This document shows positions 37,822 to 48,369 of a DNA stretch of 64,000 bases, one piece after another. Within the stretch, counting starts at the first letter, position 1. The number at the start of each line of letters is the position of its first letter. Made by a program: the position numbers and the translations under genes. Source of the stretch: Escherichia phage JLBYU32. The DNA lies in the sequence record OK272490.1; one strand, given 5' to 3'. The notes under the pieces are model-generated. The model ran no database searches, had not been told where the DNA came from, and was given only the letters and a program-made list of their open reading frames with translations.

Positions 37822-39174
37822 ATGTGGAATCCAATTGTTAATGTAGATATTACATTGAACACCGCAGGAACTACAAGAGAAGGTTTTGGTTTGCCACTAT
37901 TCTTAGCTTCAACAGATAACTTTGAAGAAAGAGTACGTGGTTACACTTCCTTAACTGAAGTTGCTGAAGATTTCGATGAGAATACTGCTGCATATAAGGC
38001 TGCTAAACAACTTTGGAGTCAGACTCCTAAAGTGACTCAGCTTTATATTGGTAGACGTGCTATGCAGTACACTGTATCAATTCCTAATGCCGTTACTGAA
38101 AGTACAGACTACTCAATCACTGTAGCTGCTGGCGGTGGAATTTCTCAACCATATCAGTATACAGCGCAAGCTGAAGACACTGCTGAAAACGTGTTGCAAC
38201 AGTTTAAAACACAGATTGAAGCTGACCCAACAATCAAAGATAAGGTTTCTGTGAACGTAACTGGTAGCAATGGCTCTGCCACAATGATTATTACCAAAGC
38301 TGGTGATAATGACTTTGTGAAAGTAACAACCACAGCACAGACTGTATATATTGCAAGTACAACTGCCGATACAGCATCAACTGCTCTAGCAGCCATTGAA
38401 GCTTACTCTACTGACTGGTATTTCATTGCAGCAGAAGACAGAACTCAACAGTTTGTCTTAGCAATGGCTTCTGAGATTCAGGCTCGTAAGAAAATTTTCT
38501 TTACAGCTAACTCCGATGTAACAGCCCTACAAGGTACAGAATTAGCCAGTGCAAATGATGTTCCAGCACAGCTTGCTAAGAATATGTACACTCGTACAGT
38601 TTGCTTGTGGCATCACGCAGCATCAGAAGATTATCCAGAGATGGCATACATTGCTTATGGTGCTCCATATGATGCAGGTTCAATTGCTTGGGGTAATGCT
38701 CAGCTAACTGGTGTAGCCGCTTCTCTACAACCATCTAATCAGAGACCTCTGACAAGTATTCAGAAGTCTGCTTTAGATGTACGTCACTGTAACTTTATTG
38801 ACCTTGATGGTGGTGTTCCAGTGGTTCGTAGAGGGATTACTTCTGGTGGGGAATGGATTGATATCGTCCGTGGTGTTGACTGGTTAGAATCAGACCTGAA
38901 AACTTCTCTGAGAGACTTGCTAATTAACCAGAAGGGTGGTAAGATTACTTATGATGATACTGGTATTACCCGTATTCGTCAAGTCATTGAAACCTCTCTG
39001 CAAAGAGCAGTCAACAGAAACTTCCTGTCATCTTACACAGTTAATGTTCCTAAAGCCTCTCAAGTTGCTTTAGCAGACAAGAAAGCTCGTATCCTGAAAG
39101 ACGTTACCTTCGCAGGTATCTTAGCAGGGGCTATCTTGGATGTTGACTTGAAAGGTACAGTGGCTTACGAATAA
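37822..39174 (+). CDS. tail sheath protein
   Basis: 450 aa directly upstream of 148-aa tube gene, chaperone frameshift pair and tape measure (canonical myovirus order). Confidence 0.65.
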   Translation: MWNPIVNVDITLNTAGTTREGFGLPLFLASTDNFEERVRGYTSLTEVAEDFDENTAAYKAAKQLWSQTPKVTQLYIGRRAMQYTVSIPNAVTESTDYSITVAAGGGISQPYQYTAQAEDTAENVLQQFKTQIEADPTIKDKVSVNVTGSNGSATMIITKAGDNDFVKVTTTAQTVYIASTTADTASTALAAIEAYSTDWYFIAAEDRTQQFVLAMASEIQARKKIFFTANSDVTALQGTELASANDVPAQLAKNMYTRTVCLWHHAASEDYPEMAYIAYGAPYDAGSIAWGNAQLTGVAASLQPSNQRPLTSIQKSALDVRHCNFIDLDGGVPVVRRGITSGGEWIDIVRGVDWLESDLKTSLRDLLINQKGGKITYDDTGITRIRQVIETSLQRAVNRNFLSSYTVNVPKASQVALADKKARILKDVTFAGILAGAILDVDLKGTVAYE

Positions 39175-39189
39175 TAGAGGTAAATTGGA

Positions 39190-39636
39190 ATGGCTATGTA
39201 TCAGCAATATTCCCCTAAAGACGTTGTATGTAGCTGGAACGGCATTGCTATTGAAGGCTTTGCTCCAGACTCATTCTTGCGTCTACAGAGAACATCACCA
39301 CTTGTGACACCAGTTGTTGGTGCAGGTGGTCAGGTTGCTCTGACAAGAAATGCAGACAAGACAGGTACTATTGAGATTGAGCTAATGCAGACTTCTCTCT
39401 CTAACCAGATGCTTTCTGCAATTCAAGCTAAACAAGACAATATGGAACTTGAAGAAGATATCTCTTCTAACTTCGTAATCTACGACCCATCAGGCTCTGT
39501 TCTGGCAACTGGTATTAACGCTTGGTTGCAGGAGTTACCACAGATTGAACTTGGTCGTGACCAGAACTCTAAAACTTGGATTTTTGGTTGTGAGAAGTTA
39601 GACTACACTTCTACAATTCCAGCGTCAAGTGTTTAA
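39190..39636 (+). CDS. tail tube protein
   Basis: 148 aa between sheath and chaperone genes; terminator follows. Confidence 0.6.
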   Translation: MAMYQQYSPKDVVCSWNGIAIEGFAPDSFLRLQRTSPLVTPVVGAGGQVALTRNADKTGTIEIELMQTSLSNQMLSAIQAKQDNMELEEDISSNFVIYDPSGSVLATGINAWLQELPQIELGRDQNSKTWIFGCEKLDYTSTIPASSV

Positions 39637-39648
39637 TAAATCCTATAA

Positions 39649-39680
39649 GGGGGAGACTTTAAAAGGTCTTCCCCTTTTTT
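39649..39680 (+). terminator. rho-independent terminator (likely partial readthrough)
   Basis: GGGGGAGAC..GGTCTTCCCC hairpin followed by TTTTTTG. Confidence 0.6.
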
Positions 39681-39709
39681 GTTTCTTTTAAAAGTATTAA
39701 GGAATCACA

Positions 39710-40108
39710 ATGAAAACAGAATCTAGAGTAATTAATGGTAAGAAAGTAAATATCGTTCTGCTTGGGGCAAGAGATGGTATTAAGATGTCTATGAAGTTGG
39801 GTAAAATTGTTGTTCCAACTTTTGCACAGATGCTGTCAAGTCTGACTGACAAGGGTAAGAAAGAAGCTCCAATGGTTCCATTTAAAGAACTTGTTGAAGC
39901 TTGTTTTGACAGAATTGAAGAAATTAACCTTGAAGAAATGGCTACCCTGTTATTTCAAGGGGCAACTGTTGATGACTTCCCACTCAATATTGATACATAC
40001 TTCCAAGCAAACTACGGTGAGTTCATTGATTACTTAGCATTTGCGCTGGAGGCAAACTTCGGAAGTTTTTTCGAAGCAAGCATTTTCAAAAGCCTAACTT
40101 CTCAGTAA
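39710..40108 (+). CDS. tail assembly chaperone (G-like)
   Basis: position before tape measure; slippery heptamer near 3' end. Confidence 0.6.
   Translation: MKTESRVINGKKVNIVLLGARDGIKMSMKLGKIVVPTFAQMLSSLTDKGKKEAPMVPFKELVEACFDRIEEINLEEMATLLFQGATVDDFPLNIDTYFQANYGEFIDYLAFALEANFGSFFEASIFKSLTSQ
40066..40072 (+). other. programmed -1 ribosomal frameshift site (slippery heptamer T_TTT_TTC)
   Basis: heptamer in X_XXY_YYZ register of 39710 ORF; -1 frame is open from 40069 into ORF 40111-40350. Confidence 0.6.
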
Positions 40109-40110
40109 AC

Positions 40111-40349
40111 ATGGGTAACACTCTACAGACACCACTAACTGATGCTGCTGTAGAGGCAACCTATGAAGAAGCAGACGAGATGAAATTTGTGCTTGCTATT
40201 TATGGTATGGAAGGGTGTAAAGAAACACTCGACCAACTCTTTGCTATGACATTCTCTGATTTATTATCATTGAGACAATTTCTTGAAATTCAGAGGTCGT
40301 ATAAAGAGGAAATTGCTTACAACGAACTTAGAAGAGCAGGAAAAATGTA

Positions 40350-40350
<1 letters not shown>
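40111..40350 (+). CDS. tail assembly chaperone frameshift extension (GT-like)
   Basis: in -1 frame relative to upstream chaperone, no intervening stop from slip site. Confidence 0.55.

Positions 40351-48369
<8,019 letters not shown>

What the first reader, a model, noticed from the sequence alone, without database searches (positions are those of the whole stretch)
39710..40350. Programmed -1 frameshift in the tail assembly chaperone gene
The heptamer T_TTT_TTC at 40066-40072 lies in exact X_XXY_YYZ register near the end of ORF 39710-40108. The -1 frame is open from the slip site through ORF 40111-40350, giving a predicted fusion of ~210 aa. This is the conserved tailed-phage chaperone frameshift, here located precisely.
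Basis: partly seen in the sequence, partly recalled or inferred. Interest (0 to 1): 0.4.

Follow-up and report, generated by a model that had tools for sequence, protein, structure and literature searches.

The report
Tail chaperone -1 frameshift, Felix O1-like phage
The slippery TTTTTTC in the tail-chaperone gene of this Felix O1-like phage is real, is kept in every relative examined, and very probably makes a 213-residue fusion protein by a -1 ribosomal slip; this is a textbook phage mechanism already reported for sister phages, so it is ordinary.

Summary
TTTTTTC lies at 40066-40072 in exact T_TTT_TTC register of ORF 39710-40108. The -1 frame is open from 40030 to 40350, and the predicted fusion is 213 aa.

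The window is a Felixounavirus. The ORF pair sits between the sheath and tube genes and the tape measure gene. ORF1 is a Pfam Phage_TAC_15 chaperone.

In one genome the heptamer alone is weak evidence (P about 0.1). The comparative evidence is strong:
- All 24 lineages of relatives (down to about 25% identity, GC 35-65%) keep NNT TTT TTY and a 76-124 aa -1 extension that usually has no start codon.
- Synonymous-codon identity peaks at 0.93 at the site.
- A Buttiauxella relative encodes the fusion as a separate in-frame gene and there uses non-slippery TCA TTC TTC.

The window shows no downstream hairpin. A GGAGG lies 13 nt upstream and may stimulate the slip.

The frameshift is annotated in the sister genus Mooglevirus (Mordin) and published for Mijalis. 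The five Felixounavirus records I opened list two separate genes. No protein-level evidence exists.

Verdict: supported, already known, low interest.

The parts
39647..39686 (+). Intrinsic-terminator-like hairpin plus T-run between the tube gene and the chaperone gene. This is context: it would lower transcription into the chaperone and tape-measure genes.
   Evidence: 13-pair stem, 6 GC pairs, T-rich tail. A terminator is annotated at the same place in phage Mordin.
39700..39703 (+). Shine-Dalgarno AGGA of the chaperone gene, 6 nt before the ATG at 39710.
   Evidence: Read directly from the sequence.
39710..40108 (+). Frame-0 tail assembly chaperone gene (G-like product, 132 aa, stop TAA 40106-40108).
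40048..40052 (+). Internal Shine-Dalgarno-like GGAGG, 13 nt upstream of the heptamer. It is a candidate 5' stimulator of the slip.
   Evidence: Sequence. The underlying GAG-G is present in 19 of 24 lineages against 9.7 expected from codon usage, P 5.5e-5. The published range for -1 stimulation is 9-14 nt (PMC5009743). The stimulatory function is inferred, not shown.
40066..40072 (+). Slippery heptamer T_TTT_TTC (F120-F121 of frame 0).
   Evidence: Conserved as T_TTT_TTY in all relatives. Synonymous-codon identity is 0.93 here against 0.3-0.6 elsewhere in the gene. U_UU.U_UU.Y is in the efficient class in E. coli (PMC4066793).
40030..40108 (+). Overlap in which both frame 0 and frame -1 are open. 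It is dual-coding downstream of the heptamer.
   Evidence: A blastn island: Erwinia phages match only window 40055-40095, at 92.7%.
40072..40350 (+). -1 frame extension (T-like domain, 92 aa, first codon CGA 40072-40074, stop TAA 40348-40350).
   Evidence: phrog_4963 E 2.8e-55 for its last 79 aa. It aligns with the -1 extensions of 14 other lineages. It also aligns in one piece, across the junction, with an in-frame Buttiauxella protein.
40111..40113 (+). ATG used by database annotators as the start of a separate 79-aa ORF2. It has no Shine-Dalgarno and lies 2 nt after the frame-0 stop.
   Evidence: A start codon at this position is not conserved in relatives.
40350..42578 (+). Tape measure protein gene. 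Its ATG overlaps the TAA of the -1 frame (TAATG).
   Evidence: PF20155 TMP_3; phrog_4036, E reported as 0.

Best explanation
This is the tail assembly chaperone pair of a Felix O1-like contractile-tailed phage, expressed by a programmed -1 ribosomal frameshift.

Most ribosomes translate 39710-40108 and release the 132-aa chaperone. A minority slip when tRNA-Phe occupies both the P site (TTT, 40067-40069) and the A site (TTC, 40070-40072). Both tRNAs slip back one base onto TTT TTT (40066-40071). The ribosome then reads CGA at 40072 and continues in the -1 frame to the TAA at 40348-40350. The product is a 213-aa fusion (...ANFGSFF|RSKHFQKP...).

By analogy with lambda gpG/gpGT and P2 gpE/gpE+E', the shared N-terminal domain coats the tape measure protein encoded immediately downstream. 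The rare C-terminal T-like domain recruits the tube protein, and neither protein ends up in the virion.

The window has no downstream hairpin. The slip probably relies on the intrinsically shifty U_UUU_UUC, possibly helped by the GGAGG 13 nt upstream pairing with 16S rRNA.

Shown here: the sequence anatomy, the family membership of ORF1, the synteny, the deep conservation of the signal, and the existence of in-frame homologues of the fusion. Inferred: that the slip occurs, its efficiency, the role of the GGAGG, and the protein functions.
For: Anatomy: the heptamer is in register, the -1 frame is open 40030-40350, and the fusion is 213 aa.

Identity and synteny: the gene order is sheath (phrog_205), tube, Phage_TAC_15 ORF1, phrog_4963 ORF2, tape measure. 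The window is 98.5-99% identical to Felixounavirus genomes.

Conservation of the signal:
- T_TTT_TTY is in register in Felix O1, Mordin, phiEa21-4, Yersinia P778, Arno162, and the Vequintavirinae phages CR3 and Av-05. It is also in register in all 80 IMG/VR loci.
- Across 24 clusters at 60% identity, the joint codon-usage expectation is about 1e-19.
- The preceding codon always ends in T, even in relatives with 62-65% GC.
- The register is fixed, which points to tandem tRNA slippage rather than a mere T-run.

The -1 extension: it is 76-124 aa long in every lineage. In most lineages the first start codon lies deep inside the extension, for example at aa 56 in phiEa21-4 and aa 72 of 76 in L047.

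Nucleotide-level conservation: synonymous-codon identity peaks at 0.93 over residues 118-126. Erwinia phages match by blastn only at 40055-40095.

Natural controls:
- Buttiauxella locus L094 encodes G (126 aa) and an in-frame G+T protein (201 aa) as separate genes. Its G gene spells S-F-F as TCA TTC TTC, which is not slippery.
- The window fusion aligns with that 201-aa protein in one piece across the junction, E 5e-13.
- Phage CL1 has T7 instead of T6, which gives an in-frame ORF that reads straight through the predicted junction (...GSFFRSKHFQKP...).

Literature:
- U_UU.U_UU.Y is among the efficient heptamers in E. coli (PMC4066793).
- P2 E/E+E' slips at TTTTTTG without a hairpin (PMC3091744).
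- A frameshift was identified in the Felix O1-like phage Mijalis (PMC5543628), and a joined CDS is annotated in Mordin.
Against: - There is no protein or ribosome-profiling evidence for any Felixounavirus.
- In the window, an ATG at 40111 lies 2 nt after the frame-0 stop, so ORF2 could also be made by termination-reinitiation. All five Felixounavirus records I opened annotate two separate genes.
- No downstream stimulatory structure was found. The 55 nt after the heptamer fold at -3.4 kcal/mol, z +0.7, weaker than 98% of windows in the locus. The fold of 40040-40140 has z 0.14. Rfam gives nothing near threshold.
- Within this single genome the heptamer is expected by chance about 10% of the time.
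- The IMG/VR loci were retrieved with a peptide pattern that forces the F-F dipeptide, so only codon choice, not F-F itself, is an independent observation. The 1e-19 figure ignores shared ancestry.
Confidence: 0.88

Rival explanations
1. These are two independent genes. ORF2 (40111-40350, 79 aa) is translated on its own from the ATG at 40111 by termination-reinitiation after ORF1, as annotated in the Felix O1 RefSeq record, and the heptamer is incidental.
For: The ATG lies 2 nt after the TAA of ORF1. Two separate CDS are annotated in Felix O1, warpig, GEC_vB_BS, pSJ21 and HMD-P8. The phrog_4963 profile is 79 positions long and matches ORF2 end to end.
Against: - There is no Shine-Dalgarno before the ATG at 40111.
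- The start is not conserved. P778 has only a TTG. phiEa21-4 has none before aa 56 of the extension, and its ORF2 is unannotated or truncated in the records. Most distant lineages have none until deep in the domain.
- The -1 peptide between the heptamer and the ATG (RSKHFQKP) is conserved.
- The synonymous-conservation peak at the heptamer is unexplained by this model.
- The in-frame Buttiauxella homologue spans the junction.
- This rival could still be true in addition to the frameshift.
Confidence: 0.06
2. The cause is transcriptional slippage. RNA polymerase adds one extra U on the T6 run, so that a fraction of mRNAs carry U7 and encode the same 213-aa fusion in frame.
For: The site is a homopolymer. 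A U7 mRNA would give exactly the same protein, as the T7 genome of phage CL1 shows. Some relatives have T7-T8.
Against: - Six T is short for efficient bacterial RNA polymerase slippage; documented cases use runs of about 9 (my own knowledge, not tested here).
- The register is invariant. The run always starts at the third base of the preceding codon, even when the second Phe codon is TTT. A register-blind polymerase mechanism would not select for this.
- The conserved GAGG 13 nt upstream fits a ribosomal mechanism.
Confidence: 0.04
3. It is a chance heptamer. The F-F dipeptide is conserved for protein reasons, the T-run is a by-product, and the -1 ORF is not joined to ORF1.
For: F120 and F121 are invariant residues of the chaperone family. 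One in-register heptamer in the overlap is expected about 10% of the time.
Against: - The codon choice NNT TTT TTY is fixed in 24 of 24 lineages against a codon-usage expectation of 3-50% each.
- Buttiauxella keeps S-F-F but spells it TCA TTC TTC where no frameshift is needed.
- This is the only heptamer of the 66 in the window followed by a long open -1 frame.
Confidence: 0.02

Closest known systems
Tape measure chaperone frameshift of Felix O1-like Citrobacter phages Mordin and Mijalis (Mooglevirus, Ounavirinae)
   Same: The genes are homologous (70% aa identity over the fusion). The site has the same sequence apart from one base after the heptamer (GGAAGTTTTTTCGA[A/G]GCAAGCATTTTC). The synteny is the same. 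The site is annotated as a joined CDS in Mordin and stated in the Mijalis genome announcement (PMC5543628).
   Different: It is a different genus. In the window and in the Felixounavirus records I opened, the two ORFs are annotated as separate genes. Neither case has experimental proof.
Bacteriophage P2 gpE / gpE+E' (-1 frameshift at TTTTTTG in the FETUD tail operon)
   Same: Both are contractile-tailed phages with the gene order sheath, tube, chaperone pair, tape measure. Both have a T6-based heptamer near the end of the first ORF and no downstream hairpin (PMC3091744).
   Different: No sequence similarity was detected: ORF1 matched only Pfam Phage_TAC_15. The last base is C rather than G. 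The products are larger (132 and 213 aa against 91 and 142 aa). The P2 frameshift has been shown experimentally.
Phage lambda gpG / gpGT (conserved frameshift of Xu, Hendrix and Duda 2004)
   Same: Both use two overlapping ORFs just upstream of the tape measure gene. A rare -1 fusion shares the N-terminus with an abundant short chaperone. The model of function is taken from lambda (PMC5009743).
   Different: Lambda is a siphovirus. Its slip site is G_GGA_AAG (my own knowledge). There is no detectable sequence homology.
E. coli dnaX and IS-element -1 frameshift cassettes
   Same: They have a tandem-slippage heptamer with an internal Shine-Dalgarno-like stimulator 9-14 nt upstream (PMC5009743). 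Here GGAGG lies 13 nt upstream.
   Different: dnaX also needs a strong downstream hairpin, which is absent here. The gene function is different.

Membership tests
Tailed-phage tail assembly chaperone G/GT-type programmed -1 frameshift | Two overlapping ORFs lie directly between the major tail (tube) gene and the tape measure gene. | tested here: met
   Tube 39190-39636, ORF1 39710-40108, ORF2 frame open 40030-40350, tape measure 40350-42578.
Tailed-phage tail assembly chaperone G/GT-type programmed -1 frameshift | A slippery sequence sits in the overlap, in the register that lets the tRNAs re-pair in the -1 frame. | tested here: met
   T_TTT_TTC at 40066-40072, with codons 40067-40069 and 40070-40072.
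Tailed-phage tail assembly chaperone G/GT-type programmed -1 frameshift | The first ORF belongs to a tail assembly chaperone protein family. | tested here: met
   [not shown]
Tailed-phage tail assembly chaperone G/GT-type programmed -1 frameshift | The downstream ORF lacks its own translation start. | tested here: inconclusive
   The window has an ATG at 40111 without a Shine-Dalgarno. Most relatives have no start codon near the frame-0 stop.
Tailed-phage tail assembly chaperone G/GT-type programmed -1 frameshift | The slip site and the two-frame arrangement are conserved among diverged relatives. | tested here: met
   24 of 24 lineages. Synonymous conservation peaks at 0.93. A blastn island at 40055-40095.
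Tailed-phage tail assembly chaperone G/GT-type programmed -1 frameshift | Two proteins with a common N-terminus are made in a fixed ratio, both are needed for tail assembly, and both are absent from virions. | not testable with these tools
   This needs protein analysis and genetics. No such data were found in the literature searches.
P2 gpE/gpE+E' family | Sequence homology to P2 gpE. | tested here: not met
   The Pfam scan at E up to 0.1 gave only Phage_TAC_15 and one spurious hit. P2 gpE itself was not compared directly.
P2 gpE/gpE+E' family | A T6-run heptamer, no 3' hairpin, and sheath-tube-chaperone-tape measure synteny. | tested here: met
   The P2 features are taken from PMC3091744.
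dnaX/IS-type -1 frameshift cassette | An internal Shine-Dalgarno-like sequence lies 9-14 nt 5' of the heptamer. | tested here: met
   GGAGG at 40048-40052 with a 13-nt spacer. GAG-G is enriched in relatives, P 5.5e-5. The function is not tested.
dnaX/IS-type -1 frameshift cassette | A stable hairpin or pseudoknot lies 5-9 nt 3' of the heptamer. | tested here: not met
   MFE -3.4 kcal/mol, z +0.7. z 0.14. There is no Rfam family. Pseudoknots were not searched for explicitly.
Transcriptional slippage sites | A long homopolymer run (about 9 or more A/T in bacteria) whose reading register is irrelevant. | tested here: not met
   The run is T6. The register is invariant in 24 lineages. The run-length criterion is from my own knowledge.

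The most novel reading that the evidence does not exclude
The frameshift cassette is one ancient, composite signal written into a conserved protein motif, E-x-N-[FY]-x-[SC]-F-F. In this reading, GAG-G (an SD-like 5' stimulator) sits exactly 13 nt before T_TTT_TTY and is shared by Ounavirinae, Vequintavirinae and many uncultivated phages. In the Felix O1 group it would work with the 5' stimulator alone and no 3' structure. Felixounaviruses might in addition make a free 79-aa T-like domain from the ATG at 40111 as a third product.
Probability: 0.3. Interest if true: 0.3.

Novelty: already known. Interest (0 to 1): 0.12.

Why it matters
The main value is for annotation. The five Felixounavirus records I opened, including the Felix O1 reference sequence, list two separate chaperone genes, and the Erwinia relatives leave the second frame unannotated or truncated. 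The correct gene model is almost certainly a 132-aa chaperone plus a 213-aa frameshift fusion.

These phages are widely used for Salmonella and E. coli typing and biocontrol, so a correct tail-assembly gene model has practical use. Biologically the finding adds no new principle. It extends a textbook mechanism and gives a clean comparative case, including a natural control in which the fusion has its own gene and the slippery codons are gone.

Tried and rejected
- Downstream stimulatory hairpin. I folded the 55 nt after the heptamer in the window and in 26 relatives and folded 40040-40140. Nothing significant appeared in the Felix O1 group. Strong hairpins appear only in some GC-rich relatives, so this is not a family feature.
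- Hairpin 40056-40063 / 40069-40076. It encloses the heptamer itself, so it would be melted by the ribosome, and the region is not significant against shuffles.
- Weak 'terminator-like' hit at 40046-40062. I judged it a by-product of the T-run.
- Rfam over 39600-40500. Only sub-threshold chance hits.
- PDB by sequence. No relative found.
- Literature for a Felixounavirus-specific report of the frameshift. None found. The one hit for 'Felixounavirus + frameshift' concerned host rfaK mutations. The Mordin announcement does not mention the frameshift.
- The phrog_3840 match reaching fusion residue 151. I considered this as possible evidence for the junction, but the Vequintavirinae frame-0 tails show no obvious similarity by eye to the window's -1 peptide (no alignment was run), so I did not use it.
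- Other slip sites in the overlap. Only a U_UU.C tetramer at 40084-40087 is present. It is not conserved beyond close relatives.

Full report
**What is in the sequence**

Bases 40066-40072 read TTTTTTC. ORF 39710-40108 (132 aa) has codons starting at 39710+3n. F120 is therefore TTT 40067-40069 and F121 is TTC 40070-40072. With the T at 40066 this gives T_TTT_TTC in exact X_XXY_YYZ register.

The -1 frame is open from 40030 to the TAA at 40348-40350 and includes ORF 40111-40350. After a tandem -1 slip the next codon is CGA at 40072. The product is 121 + 92 = 213 aa, with the junction ...EANFGSFF|RSKHFQKPNFSVNMGNT....

**Is it more than chance?**

Within this window alone, only mildly. A crude set of 74 genes holds 66 in-register XXXYYYZ heptamers in 16,494 codons. 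At least one in the 26-codon overlap is expected about 10% of the time. It is, however, the only in-register TTTTTTC in the window. It is also the only one of the 66 followed by a long open -1 frame (94 codons; the next best is 34).

**Context**

The window is a Felixounavirus. It is 98.5-99% identical to Felix O1, JohannRWettstein and about 250 others over 39190-40700.

The gene order is as follows:

| Coordinates | Gene | Evidence |
|---|---|---|
| 37822-39174 | sheath | phrog_205 |
| 39190-39636 | tube-like virion protein | phrog_280 'virion structural protein' (PHROG category: head and packaging); Pfam KPP10_Orf10; 'tube' inferred from position |
| 39710-40108 | ORF1, chaperone | Pfam Phage_TAC_15, 71 bits against a cut-off of 22; phrog_1613 |
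| 40111-40350 | ORF2 | phrog_4963 'tail assembly chaperone' |
| 40350-42578 | tape measure | TMP_3; phrog_4036 |
| from 42578 | Dit-like protein | Pfam Dit_like |

**Comparative evidence**

- *Nucleotide island.* A sensitive blastn of 39710-40350 finds the Erwinia Kolesnikvirus phages only over query 346-386, which is window 40055-40095, at 92.7% identity. The proteins are only about 40% identical. There is thus a nucleotide island exactly at the slip site.

- *Named relatives.* In Felix O1, Mordin (Mooglevirus), phiEa21-4, Yersinia P778 and Arno162 an in-register TTTTTTC sits at the same ..N[FY]x[SC]FF.. motif. The same holds in the Vequintavirinae phages CR3 and Av-05, which are 26-27% identical. 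In each, the -1 frame runs on to the tape measure start.

- *IMG/VR scan.* A scan returned 80 loci, and every one has T_TTT_TTC or T_TTT_TTT with a 76-124 aa -1 extension. The scan pattern forced the F-F dipeptide, so only the codon choice is an independent observation. In 24 clusters at 60% identity (GC 35-65%) the preceding Ser or Cys codon always ends in T and the first Phe codon is always TTT. Local codon usage predicts 3-50% per lineage, and the product is about 1e-19, uncorrected for shared ancestry.

- *Synonymous sites.* Among nine Ounavirinae-like lineages, synonymous-codon identity is 0.3-0.6 along the gene. It rises to 0.93 at residues 118-126 (GSFFEASIF).

- *Start codons.* In most lineages the -1 extension has no start codon anywhere near the frame-0 stop. 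For example, phiEa21-4 has its first at aa 56, L047 at aa 72 of 76, and L059 at aa 63. The T-like domain can therefore only be made as a fusion in those lineages.

- *Homology of the extensions.* The extensions of 15 lineages align and share a C-terminal motif.

**Two natural controls**

A Buttiauxella noackiae chromosomal locus (L094) has a Phage_TAC_15 gene (126 aa), followed by a separate 201-aa gene and then a tape measure gene.

- The 126-aa gene ends ...ENFGSFFKAEIAKGV and spells S-F-F as TCA TTC TTC, which is not slippery.
- The 201-aa protein is an in-frame G-like plus T-like protein.
- The window's predicted fusion aligns with it in a single BLASTP segment, residues 81-208 against 64-194, E 5e-13. 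The alignment runs straight across the junction at 121/122.

So where the fusion has its own gene, the slippery codons are absent, and the order of sequence across the predicted junction is that of a real protein.

The second control is Escherichia phage CL1. Its record carries T7 instead of T6, giving a single ORF that reads straight through the predicted junction (...GSFFRSKHFQKP...) and is 98.6% identical to the predicted fusion. This is either a sequencing error or a fusion-only variant.

**Mechanism**

U_UU.U_UU.C and U_UU.U_UU.U are among the heptamers that shift by more than 0.1% without any stimulator. H_HH.U_UU.Y is in the most efficient class in E. coli, and U_UU.U_UU.C is used by IS elements (PMC4066793).

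No 3' stimulator is present in the window:
- The 55 nt after the heptamer fold at -3.4 kcal/mol, z +0.7, weaker than 98% of windows in the locus.
- The fold of 40040-40140 has z 0.14.
- Rfam gives nothing near threshold.

This matches P2 E/E+E', which slips at TTTTTTG without a hairpin (PMC3091744). Some GC-rich relatives do have strong hairpins 8-9 nt downstream, so a 3' structure is optional in this family.

A GGAGG lies at 40048-40052, 13 nt before the heptamer. The underlying GAG-G occurs in 19 of 24 lineages against 9.7 expected, P 5.5e-5. Internal Shine-Dalgarno sequences stimulate -1 frameshifting when placed 9-14 nt upstream (PMC5009743). This role is plausible but inferred.

The invariant register of the T-run argues for tandem tRNA slippage and against RNA polymerase slippage, which would be indifferent to register. 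Six T is also short for the latter (my own knowledge).

The function of the two proteins is taken from lambda (PMC5009743) and is not tested here. In that model the G-like part binds the tape measure protein, and the rare T-like part recruits the tube subunit.

**Rivals**

- *Independent translation of ORF2 from the ATG at 40111.* The ATG is 2 nt after the stop and has no Shine-Dalgarno. This cannot be excluded as an additional route in Felixounaviruses. It cannot be the conserved route, because the start is absent or different in relatives.
- *Transcriptional slippage* and *pure chance* are both unlikely, for the reasons given above.

**Known or new?**

The mechanism is the conserved frameshift of Xu, Hendrix and Duda (2004). 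The homologous site is annotated as a joined CDS in Citrobacter phage Mordin. [quoted passage not shown]

The five Felixounavirus records I opened annotate two separate genes. These are Felix O1 RefSeq, warpig, GEC_vB_BS, pSJ21 and HMD-P8. phiEa21-4 and phiEa104 leave the T-like frame unannotated or truncated. A search of 5.8 billion proteins with the fusion returned only ORF1-length chaperone-domain entries (124-136 aa, mostly 132 aa) and no fused form among the 92 hits.

The finding is therefore a correct and well-placed call of an already known feature, useful mainly as an annotation correction.

**Verdict**

Novelty: already known. Interest: low (0.12).

Noticed in passing
L094:6001-6986 (Buttiauxella noackiae JPRU01000001): A chromosomal, prophage-like tail module encodes the chaperone (126 aa) and an in-frame G-like plus T-like protein (201 aa) as two separate genes upstream of the tape measure gene. 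There is no slippery heptamer: S-F-F is spelled TCA TTC TTC. Gene duplication appears to replace the frameshift here.
   Followed up: partly
L006:952-990 (Escherichia phage CL1, OK040806.1): The record has T7 instead of T6 at the slip site, so the chaperone is annotated as one 213-aa in-frame ORF. This is either a homopolymer sequencing error or a viable fusion-only variant.
   Followed up: partly
window 39647-39686: A strong intrinsic-terminator-like hairpin (13 pairs) with a T-run lies between the tube gene and the chaperone gene. A terminator is annotated at the same place in phage Mordin. It would set chaperone and tape-measure expression below that of sheath and tube.
   Followed up: partly
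L003:1212-1502 and L091:631-744 (Erwinia phages phiEa21-4, phiEa104): The T-like -1 frame has no start codon until aa 56. It is left unannotated in phiEa21-4. In the phiEa104 RefSeq record it is annotated as a truncated 114-nt 'tail assembly chaperone'. Both are probable annotation errors.
   Followed up: partly
window 40084-40087: A second shift-prone motif, a U_UU.C tetramer (ATT TTC), lies 12 nt after the heptamer and inside the overlap. It is conserved only in close relatives and could be a minor alternative slip site.
   Followed up: partly
[not shown]
   Followed up: no
L068, L078, L059, L067 (IMG/VR relatives), 8-9 nt after the heptamer: GC-rich relatives carry strong hairpins just downstream of the same heptamer (for example GCGAGCG...CGCTCGC; z about -2.6 to -3.0 in three of the four, L059 z -0.3). 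The Felix O1 group has none, so the 3' stimulator seems to be gained or lost within one family.
   Followed up: partly
window 40348-40352: The tape measure ATG overlaps the stop of the -1 frame (TAATG), not the stop of the frame-0 chaperone. The same junction is seen in Mordin and P778.
   Followed up: no
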